Below, piece by piece: positions 18,861 through 60,896 of a stretch of 64,000 bases of DNA. The first letter of the stretch is position 1; each line of letters begins with the position of its first letter. Both the position numbers and the translations under genes were made by a program. Source of the stretch: Cystobasidiomycetes sp. EMM_F5 (taxonomy: Eukaryota); contig JBPGPT010000004.1 in assembly GCA_051047955.1 (NCBI GenBank), positions 310,001-374,000 of the forward strand, in the 5' to 3' direction. The notes beneath the pieces are model-generated. The model searched no databases. It saw only the letters and a list, made by a program, of their open reading frames with translations, and had not been told where the DNA came from.

Positions 18861-20070
18861 TCATACTTTGGTGATTGTACCGCTTTTGATTGTAATGCTC
18901 CTGCCCTGAGCCATCGATGCAAGATCAGCAGGAGCTGGTATCTTGACCTTGACCTGGCCAGTACGGGCAGCTCTATTAGCCTGTATGCGTAGCTATGGTT
19001 CTGTCCCTTAGCAAGATCCGGCTGCTGTACATTTGGGGACCCAACCTACTCGTGACAGTTGACTGTTAGCTAGCTCGTCAGCAAGCCAGTGATTGACTTC
19101 TGTCCCATGGCGAACAGTTGTGTGCTCGTATCTGTACTTTGCTGGATCAAAAGGCTTGAAACCTTCCATCTGCAATGTAACGGCATTCGTACGTGTGCAA
19201 TATACTCTGCTGCAGGCTTACGAATAGATAATATGCATTCTTCGACTCTGCGGAAACGTCCGACCAAGTCTGGTCCAGGGGTGCAATGTGAGTCTGGACG
19301 AAATTGAGAGAAAATTTCTGGTATTCTGCAGCGTCAGCGGCATTCACAATGCGTGTTTCATCCATGTTCGAACCCACTGTTGCTTCGGTCCAGGTCTTGG
19401 CGTTGCATCCCGGAATCCCCGCCGCAAGTAGTACCTTCCATGACGCGTCTCGTAGATTCCGAGGTTGTTTGAGTACGCATATATTGCCGTCCATCTCATA
19501 TTGGATCTCATTGGTAATACTGCGATTCTGCGTTTTGGCTGTCTTCGACACCTGCTTGTCGGGTTGACCGCCGCTAACAGTCACATCCTCAGCGGGTTGC
19601 TTGCGCTGACGACGCCGTTTTGCCGGACCAGAGTGCACGGGGTCTGCTGCAAATACATCGGTGCCGGTATCGTCATAGTCCGAGTCTGCGCTCGACTTCC
19701 GTTTTCTCTTCGCACGCCTTCCGACAGATTCTCGACGACGCTCCTTGCGAGATTCTGTGGTGTAACCGTCGGAGTCATCGATGGGATCCGACCATCTTAC
19801 CCTTCTTGCTTTTCCCTTCCCTTTCTCCTTGTTTCTAGACGAAGAATCCTTGAGTATAGACCTAGGAACCTCGACCTTGTCTTCTCCAGCGAGTTCATCA
19901 TTGTCATCGATATCTCCCCCTTCATCTGTTGTTTCATCTTCTTCCACACCGCTCGTGTCGATATTCGGTGCGTTACGCACGGATCTGCTTGATTTGGAGG
20001 CCGTAGCCGATGTCGAAGCTGCTGGTTGAGACCGCGACGCATGCGGAGCAGTATTGTCTGCTCTTTCTGC
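18861..20070 (-). CDS. Hypothetical protein with acidic/basic NLS-like N-half and a small folded C-terminal region; 5' end unresolved
   Basis: 277-codon ORF 19147-19980 with KRKRK and KRRRQRK. Plausible downstream exons MEGFKPFD...HWLADELAN and ANRAART...TITKV*. Confidence 0.55.
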
Positions 20071-20352
20071 AAGGAGGGCAGCTAGTCACACCGACAGTTT
20101 AGTATAAAAGAGCGAATTTAGCTGTGCTGTGGAGAACTTCCTTTTGTTTTTACGAGTCGTTCTGAATAATCACTTTTGCCCTTTGCGCTGTGACCTCTAC
20201 CGCGTAGCAATGCGGCACGTTGTAAGACCAGGAGGACTATTAATTTGTCGAGAGTATTCAGCTGTCGTTGCATCTATGTTTCCATGGTATAGGTAAATCC
20301 AAACCAAATTGCGCGAAGGGTGCGTGAAGGTCGACTTTTTTTTACAAGGGCA

Positions 20353-21265
20353 TAATGCACCCTCGAGTTTGTGGGTAATGTACCCCTTTACTGTTCGAAT
20401 AACCCCCAAGTAGGTCAACCCGCCCCTACTTCTTGTCTAATGCGCCCCCGAAAGATTTGTAATCCTTATTGCTATTTTCCACAGCGTGCGAATCGACTTT
20501 TGACAACGCAGACATGTTATTCTATAGTTTTACTACTGCTATCCAGCCCCTCTCGCCATTGCGACTTGTTTCTGATGTCTGACTTGCCCCGCATTGCCAC
20601 CGTCATAAGTCTGCCCATAGGGACAAAACAGCTTGTGGAACACTCGAAAGACTTTGGTGAGTAGCATATAGCAATTCAACTACTCGTAAACTATGTCAAG
20701 TATTGCTGATAACATCCGGAGGTGGATTAAAGTAGGTAGCAAATGAGCTAAGTGAGTCAATCTACTGTAAGAAGACAGTGCATTCCTTTAAGTCAGATAG
20801 GGCTACCGCATGGACCGCACGTGTGGGCACGGACAACTCAAAGGGAATGCTTGTTGCGGTGCTGGAAGAATTGCTTAGTTTTCCGTCCAAAATTCCTCCA
20901 CAATGTGGGAAGGTCAAAGAGATGCTTCAACACGACAGCAGACTCAACAGAAATGTGCATTTGTGAATATCAGTGCTCTTCAGCCTCGAGGACGTGTCAA
21001 AGGTAGCTGATTGTCGATTTGATCGCAACGTCAAAGGGGGAAAAGGAAAAAGCGGCGGCGTAAATGGTCTGAGGAATTCAAAAACACTCCAATTGACTTT
21101 CTTCCATCGTAAAATGTAGTTCACAGTATCATGCCTACTCTGGTCTTTCAGCTATGTGGCTCGCAAGTCTTATGGGGGTCGATTGTGCCTGATTTGGGGG
21201 CGATTTTTGAATGTTGGGGGCGGCTATGACTCGTGAGGGCGGGTTGTTCCAAGAAGGGGCAGGTA
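20353..21265. repeat. Pair of inverted, ~21-bp-phased motif arrays (5 + 5 copies) flanking a lower-GC core
   Basis: Left C-tracts start at 20360, 20383, 20403, 20423, 20445. Right G-tracts end at 21178, 21200, 21220, 21239, 21259. caacccgccc (20416) is the exact reverse complement of gggcgggttg (21237). Confidence 0.6.
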
Positions 21266-22255
21266 AGCTTTTTATGCAGGTAGCAGCCTTTTCGAATTCA
21301 ATTTTTCCGTGCGGGTTTGTAATTTTCGGGCGCGAAGGGCAGGACGACGGGGGATTCACTCAGCTTGGAGCTACTATGTATCAAGAAGGACTGGCTCCAC
21401 TGCTAATTCACGTTCCATACTTTCCTACTGCCTAAATATGCACGCTCATGCGGGCTTTCCTTGAAAGATAGAGCGGACTCCAATGGCCGAACCCGCTGCA
21501 TTCAACGTGGACGGGCGCAGAGTGTCCGAATCACATATGTTGGTTATGAGTTGCATTCGCTGCTCTAATGGCAGGCTCGTAACCAGACGACTGGGAGCAC
21601 AAACAGGGTAATGGCGTTACACAGAAGCTGAAGTTGCCTCTGTTCGGCTTTGGTACTGTCAGTCTCAGTTGAGACCATTTGGGACTGGACTTCGTAGACC
21701 CGGTGTGGTGCGTGGCACTCTAAGTCGCATCTGTGTCCTCGCTGTCTGCTCTGCGCTTCCGTGCCTCGTCGGAAGTGCTCCGCTTGACGGATCCTATGCT
21801 TGGTCCGTCTGTGTATACGCATCAGTGCATCAGTGTCTATGCCCATCGGATAGATACTCACGCTGTCTGGCACAATTGTTTCTGCGGCCAAAATACACGA
21901 ATGCACTTGTATTGCACCAGCGAGGCGAATTCAAAGTGAGTGAGCCTAGATCTGCAAAGATGCATCAGTTGTATCAGTGAGACGGCTGTCAGCTTCCACC
22001 TTAAGCTCGGAGCAACTGCAGGTCAATCGTTTTTGTTCAGTGTTTAGCACTAGTACAAGCGCGATTCGAGTGCCATCAGTATTAAATCAGATGTCAAAGT
22101 CGCGAAACGTAGCTAAGAGCTGGTCTCCGTTATATACTCGAGCTCGGTGTATGCACAAACTACCATCTTTGGCAATGTTTTAGCAATCACGTTTCTATAC
22201 GGCTACCCTCAATTTACCATCCCATCAAATCGCCTCTGCAACGTAATGCCAAACT

Positions 22256-25200
22256 ATGTCGGCATTCTCCCACTTGTTGCGACAAGCTCCGTATTATAGT
22301 CCTTCTGCATACGACAGTTCGCCGAGGGCAGGACCGAGCAGGCCAATCCCGACTTACCAGCGTCCGAAACCGCTGGTCAATCCGTACACTTCTCTCTCCG
22401 CGGACGCATTCGATAACTTTGTAGATGGAGTCTCGAGCAAGATTCGAGATGCGCTGTCCTTTGATCCGGCCAGTACCGCACCGAAACGAAGGGGATACGC
22501 CAATGACGCAGAATATTGGATGGACGTTGGCGGACTACCTGGAGAGTTCAGCTTGAAGCGGGTCGAGCAGAATGAAAGCGCGCCCGATGGCGATGGTGAT
22601 GCCAGTCCTGACCTCTCCATTGATGCTGAGAAGCCGGAGCAACCCAGAGCGGCCTCGAAGACTGGAAGCGGTACAGATGTCCTGGATGAATTGGACACCC
22701 AAGATGAGCACAATGCTGACGATCTAGAGCAACATCACAGCTCAGAATCAGAATATGAGAACGAGTAAGGCCAGCCAAGTCTGCCCTAATATGAATGACA
22801 TTGGCTAATCAAAATGCCTTTGAATCAGACTTACAGATGCTGACGGCGATATACAGCCAGAAGAATCCATCTATTCTGATAACAGCAATGGCGAGACATC
22901 TGCGCGTATGTATCCGATACTAGACGACCTGCGAGGGGCAGGTTCAACACAAGCGACATACAAACCCATACAGGGATTCATCCCGGCTTCCTCCTTACTA
23001 TCTTCGGAACCCGATTTACCGCCAGACGATCTGTACGCCGAGTCAAACAATGGCACCGACGCTTCTGCGGACGACTCTGTGCAATTGGGCGTCTTGCCGG
23101 AGCTGAATGGAGAAGCAGACGATGCTGACCCAACAGACATACTACTTGGCTCCGAAGATATCAACATTGATGACCAGCTTATGATGCGGACAGGTCCGCT
23201 GTCAGATCCAGCTGGGATTGACGAAGCCATCGCGGCTATACAAACATTCGATGAGCAGGAGCAACAGCTTGACGATGATCTGATTCATGCATTGCAAGTG
23301 CACCAGCAAGCGCTCGAGGACGATAAGAATGACCTGCCAGAACTTTCCGATAATGAAAATGACCACCGCAACGCAAATCCGCCGACCTTGTCCCAACCGA
23401 CAAGCTCCATACCAAAGGCAGCTAGCGTCAAATCCCGCTCTGCTTCGGCAGTCATAGAGATTGGCTCAAGTTCAGAAGGGGAGCAGGAGAATGACAGCGA
23501 AGGAGATCAGGAGGAGGAAGCAACCCCGCCTCCACTCGGAAGCACGCTCTCACAGTATGGCGGGAATGTCGCATCAACCAGTTCTGCACTATATCCGCCA
23601 CCCGCGTCACAGAAACGCCTGTTGTCGTCACGCGTTCTGCCGCACCTAGATCGAGAGGACAGACGAGCAAGCGGATATCAGAATAGTGACGACGATGATC
23701 AGGAAGACGAGGATAATGATGGCGATAGTGATTCCTATTATCGAATCGAGCAAGGGAACGATGCCACTGTATCAGATGAAGAGGACCGCAAGGAATACGC
23801 TCGAATAAGGCGGTCCATACACAGAAGAAAGCCACAACTGGAAGACGCAGATGCGGAAGATCGGTATTTTGACGATGATGATGGGAACAATGCCGCCAAT
23901 AGCGAAGATGGTGACCATACAGAAGATCACGAGGAAGCCTACGATACATCATCTTCACACGGAACCGCCGCCAGCTCTAGAAACAAGCGCAAATGGGCAG
24001 AGGAGATGGATGATGAGCTCAGCGACGGAGAGCTTGATCGGATAAACCAGAAAGAAAATGGCAACCTTGAGGAGAGGGTTCCAGTCCCGCACTTTTTCAA
24101 GAAGATCAAAGGTACTGGTGATTACGATTTGATAGCTGTAAACGACAGCGAGGATGAAGACAGCGAGGACGTGGATGAGCAAGACGAAGAAGAGAACGAC
24201 ATTCGCGTCTTGGAGACGCCTAATGTTGACGTCCCGATGAATGCCACCGCACAGTATATACTGAATCAGGAGGTTGGCTTAGACAGTTTTACGCCCCCAC
24301 ACGCTGAAGAAATGCCGCGAAGCATTCTGCCGTCAGTCAGCTTTCCAGAGCTGGAGTTTCTCACCAATCTGCATACCGAGAGGACCCCTTCACCTGCTCT
24401 CGATGTCGACGCTGCCTTGCGGAGCCTTACACAGGGAGCAGCGGATCTACCTCCCCCCGGCGACATCGTGGTATCAACTCCCGACACTAATTTTGGTGCG
24501 ATACTAGCCGGACATGCCACGGAAACGTTGCAAGCAGACCTGGAAATGGCCTCTAGCGAAACGCTCTTGGACCTGGTAAGCCACGTGGACGGTACCCTTG
24601 CGAAACCATCGCTTCACGCGACAGACATGGTGCAAGAGACAGAACAACCGTCAGCGCTACAGCCAGTGCTGGACAACCTTTCGGACCATGAGATGCTGGC
24701 ACATACGGTACAGCCTGAAGCCTCTCTCGCACATACTGAGGCGTCAAACGCGAGTCTGGGAACCTATCTTCCGCCAGGCAATACAAGCATCATCAGCTCA
24801 GATAGTACGGCTGACGTCCTGAATCCAGCGAGTCCGCTGTCTGCCGATATTGCGGTAGAGATGACGTCCGCCGCAGAGAATGATGAGAGCGTCAATGTCA
24901 AACCTCCTTCTGAAACCGAGCCATCTGCGCTTTCCCCTCATCCGCCTACCCTTTTCGATGACACGCAACAGGAAGAAGTGTCCGGTCAGCCAGCGTCGCC
25001 AAACCAAGCAATGGATAGAGAAGCAGCATCAACGGAAGGCATTATTGAAACTAGTGCAAGAGGCAGCCCTTCGGCTTCCGCAGCCCCTGAGGCCGAGCGG
25101 ATGGCCTCGTTTGTCGAGACAAGCGATGCGCACATGGAGGCAGCCGAGTCAGTCATGCCAGAAAACGACAAGAAGCTCAGCGTTGACGACGACGTCGGGG

Positions 25201-59239: not shown

Positions 59240-60896
59240 TCAAGCTTTTCGACATTTGTACGTGACTACCGGCTCCATGACTGCTATGACCGAGCATGCT
59301 CCAGCGTTTACTAGATCCTCAATCACTAGATCGACTTCCTTGTACGCATCCGGTGCTTCTTCGTAGAGCAAGTTCAAGTCTTCGCAGATGACCTGAGATC
59401 CGAAAACCGTAGTGTGCAGTTTTCCCTTGTAGAACGGCTTCGAAAACTCTGCTTTGGCTGTTGTGCGAGCCATACTCCTTCCTGCACCATGCGCGAGAGA
59501 GAAGGCTGATGGAAGAGAATGTATCAGCCACTGCACTGACTGCGAAACGACGAACCATCCGTACCATTGTTCAAGCAATCGCCGGTTGGCAATACGACAT
59601 AACTTCGAGCTCCTCGACTACCCGGTATAACCACCGCACCATCAAAGGTAGACGCAGCGCCTTTACGATGAATATAGACATCTCGTTGGCCAGAGCCCTG
59701 CCAAGCGGCAGCGTCGACCGTCCGCTTCTCCACGAAATTGTGCCATACATCCAAAATCTTGACAGCGTGGCGTGTGACATCGCCAGCTAAAGCGTCCATT
59801 ACTCTTCTAGCAATCAGAGCACGATTCGCTCTTGCCCAATTCAGAGCTTGATCGTGAAGTTCCAAGTAGTCATCTGCTTCCTCAGTGCCAGCAGATAGGT
59901 TCTTGAGCGCCTTTGGAACGGTGTCTAGTACGTGCTGGCCGAGACTTCGCGATCCAGAGTGTACGAGCAGAACGAGCTTTTCGCTATCAAGGCCAAGCGC
60001 TTCGGCAGTATCAGCATCCCGCACCTCGACCACTCTGAGGATCTCAGCAAAGTGGTTGCCACGACCGATAGTACCGAGGTCATCAAACATTGTGCTGAAT
60101 GCCGTTCCTCCTGGAAGATGAGCTTTGACTTTAAATTCCGACAGCAGTGCTTCTCGCGCCTCGTCATTCGGAAATGGGAACGGTCCTTCGATGTTTGTCA
60201 ACTTGGCTGCTAGCTGCTGCGGTCTGTCTGCACTTTTTGACGGCAGGGGAAGGCTGTAAAGCTGTGAAGACGGGCAGGTTTCAGCTAGACCCCTCCATAG
60301 TAAATAAATAAGAACCACTTGCCGACATGCCGCAGCCGATATCACCGCCAATGAGAGCCGGATAGAAAAGTCCATCCGTGATGAAGGTCGCTCCTATCGG
60401 GACTGAATCAACTGTCAATACCCGCATGCGCGGATGGGCGGTCGAGTAACTCACACTTTCCGCCTGCGTGCAGGTCGGGCATGCCGACGCTGAGCAGCAT
60501 ACCCTTGAGACCAGCAGTCGCCTTGAGCTGTTTCCATGCTTCGGCATCGACTGGTGAACTGTCTGCAATGATCCTGTACCGGCCGCTCGCCTCGGAAGGC
60601 GTACTGGCCACCATACCAGTATAGGGTTCCCCCATTGAAAAGTACAATTCGACCTGGGTATGCGATGATGCTGCCATTTCACCAATCTTGCCGGCAATCC
60701 GGTCATCTGTCAATGCGGCAGACAAGGCAAAGCCGGTAGACAAATAGATAATGGTTGCCGTCTTCTTCATCTTGAGTTTCTGCTTGCCTCGGTTTGCCAG
60801 GTGGTTGTATATGCCAGTCGTCGGGAGGGTCATTTTGACAGCACCTCGTTCGTTGTGCTTGGAGTTTAGGATGAAGAGGAACGTAAGGTCACTCAT
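59240..60896 (-). CDS. RtcB-family RNA ligase (RtcB2 / release factor H-coupled-like), 4 exons, with N-terminal extension
   Basis: GMPDLHAG, PIGA, IGGDIGCGM, GTIGRGNHFAE, VHSGSR, WARANR, DVWHN, HRKGAA, IPGSRG, SLAHGAGR, YEEAPDAYK, PVVTYK. Confidence 0.93.

What the first reader, a model, noticed from the sequence alone, without database searches (positions are those of the whole stretch)
20353..21265. Mirror-image arrays of five helically phased GC-box motifs bracketing a ~725-bp lower-GC core
Seen: the left array is taatgcaccct, taatgtacccct, gaataaccccc, caacccgcccct, taatgcgccccc (spacings 23, 20, 20, 22). The right array on the opposite strand is ttacctgcccc, caacccgccct, atagccgccccc, aaaatcgccccc, caatcgaccccc (spacings outside-in 20, 19, 20, 22). 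Spacers are not conserved, but motif and two-helical-turn phasing are. Three spot-counted 60-mers in the core are about 40% GC and there is no convincing gene. Inference: this looks like cooperative protein-binding sites on one DNA face. Candidates are a small sequence-defined centromere, an origin, a recombination/transposase-binding site of a decayed element, or a C2H2-factor enhancer.
Basis: partly seen in the sequence, partly recalled or inferred. Interest (0 to 1): 0.7.

Follow-up and report, generated by a model that had tools for sequence, protein, structure and literature searches.

The report
Mirror arrays of phased binding motifs
Two mirror-image rows of five evenly spaced short DNA motifs bracket a 0.7-kb non-coding stretch between two genes of a poorly sampled basidiomycete yeast; they look like docking sites for one DNA-binding protein, perhaps the ends of a mobile element, but what they are could not be settled.

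Summary
All ten motifs are at the stated places, with spacings 23/20/20/22 and, outside-in, 20/19/20/22. These are the only chains of 3 or more RCCCY sites at 18-24 bp spacing in the 64 kb. None of 200 dinucleotide shuffles reached a chain of 5. A matrix trained on one array finds 4 of 5 sites of the other. The core is 44.5% GC, not about 40%, and the flank to its left is just as low. The core shows no coding signal, no Rfam family and no stable RNA fold.

The window is nuclear DNA of an undersampled basidiomycete, nearest to Pucciniomycotina yeasts. The element lies in a 2.2-kb gap between divergent genes.

The identity is unresolved, because no genome, relative or RNA data could be reached.
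- Best reading (0.4): the two ends of a roughly 0.9-1.0-kb non-autonomous or fossil cut-and-paste transposon with subterminal binding-site arrays. No terminal inverted repeat or target-site duplication was found.
- Main rival (0.27): host regulatory site arrays.
- A centromere is unsupported.

The parts
20353..20449 (+). Left array: five sites (starts 20353, 20376, 20397, 20416, 20438), C-rich on the + strand, spacings 23/20/20/22
20450..21173 (.). Core of 724 bp, 44.5% GC, non-coding, with no structured-RNA signal
21174..21266 (-). Right array: five sites, C-rich on the - strand, spacings outside-in 20/19/20/22
21274..21285 (-). Degenerate sixth right-hand copy (CTACCTGCATAA), in phase 19-20 bp outside the last good site
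   Evidence: read; shares TACCTGC with the neighbouring site
20818..20823 (.). CACGTG palindrome, one of only 3 in the window, 9-11 bp from the geometric centre of the element (found post hoc)
20311..20330 (+). Two tandem copies of a second motif, GCGYRAAGG, 23-42 bp outside the left array
21330..21338 (+). Third copy of GCGYRAAGG, 64 bp outside the right array, in direct (not mirror) orientation. With 20311-20320 it forms a perfect 10-bp direct repeat.
20180..20188 (-). Fourth, inverted copy of GCGYRAAGG
20200..20273 (-). Probable first exon of the left gene: ATG at 20273; the intron to acceptor CAG at 20066 keeps the reading frame. This places the left array 80-176 bp upstream of the start codon.
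   Evidence: read by eye; codon score +6.7 bits. Inference, no RNA data.
19147..20085 (-). Main exon of the left gene, an orphan protein
22256..22768 (+). First coding exon of the right gene (ATG 22256; TATA-like TTATATAC at 22131), about 990 bp from the right array

Best explanation
The ten sites are docking sites for one sequence-specific DNA-binding protein. It reads a bipartite word: AA, then RCCCC five bases on. The sites repeat every two helical turns or so, so that five protomers line up on one face of the DNA at each side.

The two rows point in opposite directions and bracket a non-coding core. They are therefore most likely the two ends of a non-autonomous or fossil cut-and-paste DNA transposon of about 0.93-1.0 kb. 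It would be of the kind whose ends carry arrays of subterminal transposase-binding repeats (foldback-type MULE or P elements, hAT, CACTA). It would have landed in the promoter region shared by two divergent genes. The arrays would load several transposase subunits on each end and bring the ends together for excision.

Shown: the arrays, their phasing, their shared motif, their mirror polarity and the non-coding core. Inferred: protein binding, mobility and the superfamily.
For: - The arrays are real, unique in the window, and share one motif across the two sides.
- Conservation is position-specific. Four of 12 columns are invariant in 10 of 10 sites, while six columns carry 4-6 mismatches to the consensus and two carry 2 (32 of 120 cells in all). 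This has p about 1e-4 under random placement. The linkers are unrelated. The same pattern is reported for Muta1, whose 145-bp ends are a 10-bp terminal motif plus nine 12-bp repeats with 3-4-bp linkers, the two ends differing only in the linkers (PMC5499845, passages).
- Opposite polarity of subterminal repeats at the two ends is reported for hAT ends and for the fossil hAT element between MATa1 and MATa2 of Kluyveromyces (PMC4763223, passages).
- The two sides match in copy number (5 and 5), length (97 and 93 bp) and inside-out spacing (22, 20, 20, then 23 or 20). This points to one symmetric unit rather than two unrelated promoters.
- The unit is non-coding and about 0.9 kb long.
- It sits inside a cluster of a second motif, GCGYRAAGG. 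Four of the 7 window copies lie at 20180-21338, against 2.39 expected in the whole window. Those copies are not mirrored, as expected if a symmetric unit was inserted into a pre-existing promoter cluster.
- The right array is about 865 bp from the TATA-like element of the right gene, while the left array abuts the left gene. This asymmetry does not fit two promoter-proximal modules.
Against: - No terminal inverted repeat with a matching target-site duplication was found. Among 44,496 candidate end pairs only two weak combinations appear (TTACAA with TTTT at 20342-21322; GCATAA with AGG at 20350-21277), about what chance gives.
- The one perfect 10-bp flanking direct repeat (GCGCGAAGGG) has no inverted repeat inside it, and it belongs to the four-copy second motif.
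- The motif cores are too intact for an element old enough to have lost its termini by neutral decay.
- There is no other copy or any dispersed repeat in the 64 kb.
- There is no transposase remnant in the core.
- The core shows no clear repeat-mutation signature: CpG observed/expected is 0.78, against 0.80-1.11 in other intergenic stretches.
- Copy number and presence/absence in relatives could not be tested.
Confidence: 0.4

Rival explanations
1. Host regulatory arrays. The two rows are homotypic clusters of sites for one transcription factor, for example a C2H2 zinc-finger protein with an AT-contacting arm. They would serve the two divergent transcription units. The G-rich strand of each row is the sense strand of the gene it faces.
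For: - The element lies in a divergent intergenic region.
- The left array is 80-176 bp upstream of the probable ATG of the left gene, with a poly(dA) run between them (by eye).
- Both arrays have the same orientation relative to the gene they face.
- A second repeated motif resembling CGCGAA-type cell-cycle boxes (resemblance recalled, not tested) surrounds them.
- The motif cores are intact, as expected under selection in place.
- No transposon termini were found.
Against: - The right array is about 990 bp from the right gene's ATG and about 865 bp from its TATA-like element. No coding unit lies between them.
- Equal copy number, equal spacing pattern and a 724-bp unrelated spacer between the rows are not expected for ordinary upstream activating sequences.
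- No other promoter in the 64 kb has even a chain of three sites.
- The motif matches no factor I could name. Comparisons with Mig1, CreA, Adr1, STRE and BrlA sites were made from memory only.
Confidence: 0.27
2. A symmetric host chromosomal element. Possibilities are a sequence-defined replication origin with iteron-like initiator sites around an easily unwound core, a boundary element, a target of a domesticated transposase, or a miniature centromere.
For: - Phased direct repeats of about 20-22 bp next to a lower-GC stretch are the layout of iteron origins (established knowledge, recalled).
- The core is in the lowest 0.4% of the window for GC.
- One such element in 64 kb is compatible with yeast origin density (recalled).
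- A CACGTG palindrome, one of 3 in the window, lies 9-11 bp from the centre (post hoc).
- A domesticated hAT transposase acting on fossil ends in an intergenic region has a precedent (PMC4763223).
Against: - The core is only 55.5% A+T, and the adjacent flank is just as GC-poor.
- No cellular eukaryotic origin or centromere of this design is known to me.
- Against a centreomere specifically: genes abut the element, and the window's GC minimum is elsewhere, at 63.1-63.9 kb.
- There is no similarity to plasmid records and no pattern match in viral contigs.
Confidence: 0.12
3. A functionless relic: two old, inverted minisatellite-like arrays of a roughly 20-bp unit that have decayed, with the apparent motif being what is left of the ancestral unit.
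For: - The ten copies differ from their consensus at 32 of 120 positions.
- The spacings deviate from 20 by 0 to +3 bp, roughly what a few small indels would give.
- Tandem Repeats Finder no longer sees the arrays.
Against: - Mismatches are far from evenly spread. Four columns have none, p about 1e-4.
- The spacing is still regular, p about 0.0015 per array.
- Each array predicts the other.
Confidence: 0.08
4. The core holds a small gene or non-coding RNA, and the arrays are its flanking control elements.
For: - Two canonical GTGAGT donor-like sites lie on the + strand at 20658 and 20753 (by eye).
- A TATAAAAG lies at 20103 on the + strand.
Against: - No codon bias or period-3 signal.
- No homologue of the 102-residue ORF (0 of 4 candidates scored).
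- Nothing usable in Pfam for 13 ORFs even at E up to 10.
- No Rfam match at E up to 1.
- RNA fold z-scores of +1.40 and +0.55.
- No ORF in the core ending in a CaaX box.
- No telomere-template-like word.
Confidence: 0.05

Closest known systems
Foldback-type (type 2) ends of MULE and P-superfamily transposons, e.g. Muta1 of Aedes aegypti (PMC5499845, passages read)
   Same: Each end is a one-directional row of short repeats separated by unconstrained linkers. The two ends are mirror images. Non-autonomous derivatives have a short non-coding interior. Repeat number raises transposase binding and excision.
   Different: Muta1 repeats are near-identical 12-mers at a period of about 15-16 bp, with a 10-bp terminal motif and 8-9-bp target-site duplications. 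Here the copies share only about 7-8 of 12 positions, the period is about 21 bp, and no terminal motif or duplication was found. No fungal example turned up in one literature search (listing only).
Subterminal repeats of hAT and CACTA elements (Ac, Tol2, Tag1, Hermes, En/Spm), and the fossil hAT ends cut by Kat1 in Kluyveromyces lactis (PMC4763223, passages read)
   Same: Short degenerate motifs are repeated in the roughly 100-200 bp inside each end. Polarity differs between the ends and the spacers are unrelated. The Kat1 case sits in an intergenic region between two genes and serves the host.
   Different: Those motifs are 5-12 bp, irregularly spaced and often in both orientations within one end. 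They come with recognisable terminal inverted repeats, which are not seen here.
Iteron arrays of plasmid and viral replication origins (recalled, not tested)
   Same: Initiator sites of 17-22 bp repeated at about 21-22 bp, so that the proteins sit on one face, next to a less stable stretch of DNA.
   Different: Those belong to plasmids and viruses and lie beside the initiator gene. Here the context is a fungal chromosome, the core is only moderately A+T-rich, and no plasmid or viral similarity was found.
Homotypic clusters of transcription-factor sites in fungal promoters (e.g. STRE, Gal4 or pheromone-response-element clusters; recalled)
   Same: Several copies of one short motif upstream of a gene; a C/G-run core typical of zinc-finger sites.
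   Different: Such clusters are irregularly spaced. They do not come as two equal mirror rows 724 bp apart.

Membership tests
Cut-and-paste DNA transposon with subterminal repeat arrays (foldback MULE/P, hAT, CACTA) | Rows of short transposase-binding repeats just inside both ends, in opposite polarity | tested here: met
   Five plus five sites, with a shared motif confirmed by cross-prediction
Cut-and-paste DNA transposon with subterminal repeat arrays (foldback MULE/P, hAT, CACTA) | Terminal inverted repeat or terminal motif at both ends | tested here: not met
   Only 6-bp matches, at chance level, among 44,496 end pairs. No CACTA, CACTG or CACGG pair and no YARNG...CNYTR pair at the array borders (by eye).
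Cut-and-paste DNA transposon with subterminal repeat arrays (foldback MULE/P, hAT, CACTA) | Target-site duplication directly flanking the ends | tested here: inconclusive
   A perfect 10-bp direct repeat lies at 20311 and 21330, but it has no inverted repeat inside and is part of a four-copy motif. The TTTT and AGG candidates are at chance level.
Cut-and-paste DNA transposon with subterminal repeat arrays (foldback MULE/P, hAT, CACTA) | Several copies in the genome, or presence/absence between strains | not testable with these tools
   No genome is held. Only a few metagenome reads were found, and they lie outside the element. Metagenome scans found no relative. There is no second copy in the 64 kb.
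Cut-and-paste DNA transposon with subterminal repeat arrays (foldback MULE/P, hAT, CACTA) | Autonomous partner encoding a transposase with the same end motif | not testable with these tools
   No transposase-like ORF in the core or among the window ORFs scanned. The rest of the genome was out of reach.
Promoter cluster of transcription-factor sites | Lies upstream of a transcription start | tested here: inconclusive
   The left array is 80-176 bp from a probable ATG (by eye). The right array is about 990 bp from the next ATG. There are no RNA data.
Promoter cluster of transcription-factor sites | Same motif in other promoters of a regulon | tested here: not met
   Only isolated matrix hits elsewhere, and no chain of 3 or more sites in the 64 kb. 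Only this window was tested.
Promoter cluster of transcription-factor sites | Conserved in orthologous promoters | not testable with these tools
   The left gene has no homologue other than its own record: 1 hit among 3,527 candidates. No related locus was found.
Iteron-type replication origin | Phased direct repeats beside an A+T-rich unwinding region | tested here: inconclusive
   Phasing is met. The core is 44.5% GC against 51.5% for the window, but it is no lower than the flank.
Iteron-type replication origin | Supports autonomous replication or initiation | not testable with these tools
   Needs an ARS assay or replication profiling
Point or short regional centromere | Very A+T-rich core, or the main GC trough in a gene-free region | tested here: not met
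   The core is 55.5% A+T. A probable start codon lies 80 bp away (by eye). A lower-GC stretch lies at 63.1-63.9 kb.
Point or short regional centromere | One per chromosome, bound by CENP-A | not testable with these tools
   No genome is held; needs ChIP

The most novel reading that the evidence does not exclude
The element is not mobile. It is a host-maintained, sequence-defined chromosomal site in an undersampled basidiomycete yeast. Two mirror rows of five same-face initiator or adaptor sites would load a protein complex around a less stable 0.7-kb core. That would make it an iteron-style cellular replication origin or, less likely, a miniature centromere or a programmed-cleavage site of a domesticated transposase.
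Probability: 0.1. Interest if true: 0.85.

Novelty: new variant of a known kind. Interest (0 to 1): 0.4.

Why it matters
If these are transposon ends, this would be a fungal example of the foldback or subterminal-array design, with an unusually degenerate 21-bp-phased site. It would come from a branch of the Pucciniomycotina with almost no sequenced relatives, and it would give a ready motif for finding the transposase and its other copies.

If the arrays are host-maintained, they would be a rare case of strictly phased, mirror-symmetric binding-site rows in a fungal chromosome. That would give a directly testable candidate for a sequence-defined origin, a boundary or a cleavage site.

Either way, the motif and its geometry define a simple pull-down and genome-scan experiment.

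Tried and rejected
**Searches that gave nothing**
- Whole-genome search: no genome is held.
- Earlier findings of this scan: nothing for this place or sequence. A word search gave two analogies from other genomes.
- Sequencing runs: 2 phyllosphere metagenome runs were listed, each with a small share, and no RNA holder was listed. When laid, they gave five short pieces. Four lie at 21476-22000 with no differences. One is a 37-base partial match at 22675-22711. No bin between 19000 and 21411 has depth. This says nothing about the element.
- Metagenome contigs with the left-gene protein: 81 pattern matches, 0 confirmed.
- Metagenome contigs with a two-motif pattern: 10 loci, all chance. Their GC ranges from 38 to 76%, their chains are 3 or fewer, and nothing aligns beyond the pattern.
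- Viral contigs: 0 matches. Plasmid records by blastn: no match.

**Tests on the core and flanks**
- The 102-residue ORF has no homologue.
- Pfam on 13 ORFs overlapping the element, at E up to 10, gave only one sub-threshold hit (APS-reductase_C, E 0.032).
- Rfam: 0 matches at E up to 1.
- RNA fold of the core: z +1.40 and +0.55, 20 shuffles each.
- Pheromone-gene idea: the only CaaX-ending ORF lies at 21858-21965, outside the core, and ends in an atypical CQTA.
- Telomerase-RNA idea: none of 15 near-matches to AACCCTAA lies between 17863 and 28266.
- Repeat-induced-mutation idea: core CpG observed/expected is 0.78, only slightly low.
- K-mer enrichment in the intergenic region: nothing clearly beyond the array words after allowing for multiple testing.

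**Side steps**
- Central symmetry: the CACGTG and a 7-bp inverted repeat near the centre were found post hoc and are not counted as evidence.
- The crude gene map is too insensitive to judge whether the 2.2-kb gap is unusually long.
- The protein atlas gave no taxonomy.
- Folding the left-gene protein without an alignment gave pLDDT 41 and was not used.
- NCBIfam gave nothing usable for the neighbours.
- Literature searches for centromeres or ARS elements of Pucciniomycotina yeasts gave nothing bearing on this (listings only).

Full report
**What is there.** All ten motif strings were found at the stated places. Five lie on the + strand, starting at 20353, 20376, 20397, 20416 and 20438. Five lie on the - strand, at 21174-21185, 21196-21207, 21216-21227, 21236-21246 and 21256-21266. 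Anchored on the word RCCCY, the spacings are 23, 20, 20, 22 on the left and 20, 19, 20, 22 outside-in on the right. The means are 21.25 and 20.25 bp, about two helical turns.

**Aligned sites.** Aligning the ten sites gives g..nAAYnnRCCCCya.
- A at column 3 in 10 of 10 sites, and CCC in 10 of 10.
- A purine before the CCC in 9 of 10.
- A at column 2 and C at column 11 in 8 of 10.
- G five bases upstream in 7 of 10.
- About 10.6 bits of information in all.

The remaining 5-9 bases of each unit are unrelated, and Tandem Repeats Finder sees no 20-21-bp array. A degenerate sixth copy lies in phase at 21274-21285.

**Is it more than chance?** Yes.
- The two rows are the only chains of three or more RCCCY sites at 18-24 bp spacing on either strand of the window.
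- In 200 dinucleotide-preserving shuffles of the 64 kb the longest chain was 1 in 1 shuffle, 2 in 172, 3 in 26, 4 in 1 and never 5. The observed values are 5 and 5. With plain CCCC runs the observed chains are 4 and 3, and no shuffle exceeded 3.
- Given five sites with fixed outer ones, four gaps all within 19-23 bp occur with p = 0.0017 and 0.0014.
- The statement that both sides carry the same motif was tested without circularity. A matrix from the left array alone places 4 of the 5 right sites in the top 153 of 127,978 positions. A matrix from the right array places 4 of the 5 left sites in the top 179.
- The 32 mismatches to the consensus, out of 120 cells, are very unevenly spread. Four columns have none, with p about 1e-4. 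The units are therefore not simply decayed copies of one ancestor.

**Corrections.** The core (20450-21173) is 44.5% GC, not about 40%. That puts it in the lowest 0.4% of 724-bp windows, but the flank 20086-20352 is 43.8% and the window's minimum is at 63.1-63.9 kb.

**Context.** The window is fungal nuclear DNA with ordinary housekeeping genes, including mitochondrial RNA polymerase, IML1, RtcB, an ERG4/ERG24-family gene and an SMC-like gene (the last named by eye, not scanned). The polymerase fragment is closest to Pucciniomycotina yeasts such as Rhodotorula, Sporobolomyces and Microbotryum, but at only 50-63% identity. The lineage is therefore poorly sampled.

The element lies in a gap of about 2.2 kb between divergent genes.
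- On the left, the long - strand ORF 19147-20085 has no in-frame ATG in its first roughly 200 codons. Read by eye, an ATG at 20273 can be joined to it in frame. The donor lies near 20199, a CTAAA branch word near 20103, and the acceptor CAG at 20066. That short exon has a positive codon score. This puts the left array 80-176 bp upstream of the probable start codon, with a poly(dA) run between. This is inference, and the donor GTAGAG is weaker than the GTGAGT, GTAAGG and GTAGGT-or-GTGTCA donors seen in three clear introns.
- On the right, the next gene starts at ATG 22256, with a TATA-like TTATATAC at 22131. That is about 990 and 865 bp from the right array.
- Between 20274 and 22246 nothing looks coding. 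The best ORF scores 9 bits, against 38-350 for neighbouring exons. The period-3 signal is at noise level across 20100-21800.
- The left gene's product has no homologue except its own record: 1 hit among 3,527 candidates.

**What the core is not.**
- No Rfam family at E up to 1.
- No unusually stable RNA fold on either strand.
- No homologue of the 102-residue ORF.
- No transposase or other domain in 13 ORFs even at E up to 10.
- No CaaX mini-ORF in the core.
- No telomere-template word.
- No strong CpG depletion.
- No similarity to anything else in the window, which holds no dispersed repeats at all at E up to 1e-5.

**The search for transposon hallmarks.**
- I enumerated 44,496 combinations of left and right ends around the arrays. 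Only two weak candidates emerged, about the number expected by chance. One is TTACAA...TTGTAA with a flanking TTTT (20342-21322). The other is GCATAA...TTATGC with a flanking AGG (20350-21277).
- A wider search for flanking direct repeats found one perfect 10-mer, GCGCGAAGGG, at 20311 and 21330. The sequence just inside it shows no inverted repeat.
- That 10-mer belongs to a second motif, GCGYRAAGG. The motif is tandemly doubled at 20311-20330 and occurs four times between 20180 and 21338, out of 7 in the window, against 2.39 ± 1.52 in shuffles; 0 of 100 shuffles reached 7. The pattern was defined after seeing the data.
- These copies are not mirror-symmetric. They look like a host promoter cluster into which the symmetric unit is set, which gives mild support to an insertion.

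**The search for copies or relatives.** Every route open to me came back empty or uninformative.
- No genome is held.
- Two metagenome runs hold a few reads identical to the window at 21476-22000, but nothing over the element.
- Metagenome contigs hold no relative of the left gene: 0 of 81 pattern matches were confirmed.
- A two-motif pattern gave 10 chance loci.
- Viral contigs and plasmid records gave nothing.

Copy number, presence or absence in relatives, and transcription therefore remain unknown.

**Weighing the readings.** The geometry is the design of transposon ends that carry subterminal binding-site arrays. That geometry is equal rows of one-directional, same-face sites in opposite polarity around a non-coding interior of about 0.7 kb.
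- Muta1 has a 10-bp terminal motif plus nine 12-bp repeats with 3-4-bp linkers. Its two ends differ only in the linkers. Its repeat number controls transposase binding, cleavage and excision, and a natural non-autonomous derivative has a 315-bp interior (PMC5499845, passages).
- hAT ends and the fossil hAT ends cut by Kat1 in a yeast intergenic region carry hexamer repeats of opposite polarity (PMC4763223, passages).
- Basidiomycete yeasts do host CMC and KDZ elements with terminal inverted repeats of 24-241 bp (PMC12810828, passages).

Against this reading, a defining feature, the terminal inverted repeat, was tested and not met. The target-site duplication is inconclusive. The motif cores are too intact for an element old enough to have lost its termini by neutral decay. 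I therefore say it works like such ends, but I do not file it as a member.

The regulatory reading explains the position of the left array and the intact motifs. It does not explain the distant right array, the equal rows, or the 724-bp spacer.

An origin-like or other symmetric host element is not excluded. A centromere has nothing in its favour beyond symmetry.

My odds are:
- transposon ends, 0.40
- host regulatory arrays, 0.27
- other symmetric host element, 0.12
- functionless relic, 0.08
- hidden gene or RNA in the core, 0.05
- the remainder is unassigned.

**Verdict.** This is a real, statistically solid and unusual pair of phased motif arrays. Protein binding on one DNA face is the likely mechanism. 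The identity is unresolved for lack of a genome and relatives. Interest is moderate. It would rise sharply if a genome scan showed a host-maintained, origin-like distribution, and fall if it showed an ordinary multi-copy transposon.

Noticed in passing
window 20180-20188 (-), 20311-20319, 20322-20330, 21330-21338 (+): A second repeated word, GCGYRAAGG, surrounds the arrays. Four of its 7 window copies lie here, against 2.39 expected in the whole window. It contains CGCGAA, like cell-cycle (MCB/SCB-type) boxes; that resemblance is recalled, not tested.
   Followed up: partly
window 20818-20823: CACGTG occurs only 3 times in the 64 kb. One copy lies 9-11 bp from the geometric centre of the element, inside an imperfect inverted repeat, GCATTCC(C)TTTRAG, at about 20780 and 20838. 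It was found post hoc.
   Followed up: partly
window 19147-20273 (-): The left neighbour encodes an acidic and basic low-complexity protein with a C-terminal region of about 110 residues. It has no homologue in the protein collection other than its own record. Folding it without an alignment was uninformative.
   Followed up: partly
window 20658-20663 and 20753-20758 (+): Two canonical GTGAGT donor-like words lie on the + strand of the core within 100 bp, the first followed by a CTGAT branch-like word and an AG. No coding signal accompanies them.
   Followed up: partly
window 21174-21266 (+) and 20353-20449 (-): On the strand that reads outward from the core, each array is a series of five G-runs of 3-5 bases about 20 bases apart. 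This gives long-loop G-quadruplex potential, which was not evaluated.
   Followed up: no
window 21476-22000: Four 151-base pieces from two phyllosphere metagenome runs match this stretch without a difference. The organism or a very close relative therefore occurs on leaves.
   Followed up: no
window 59524-60393 (-): An RtcB-type tRNA ligase domain in a basidiomycete (Pfam PF01139, E 3.2e-35).
   Followed up: no
window 1-64000: The whole window has no internal dispersed repeat at blastn E up to 1e-5. At least this part of the genome is repeat-poor.
   Followed up: yes
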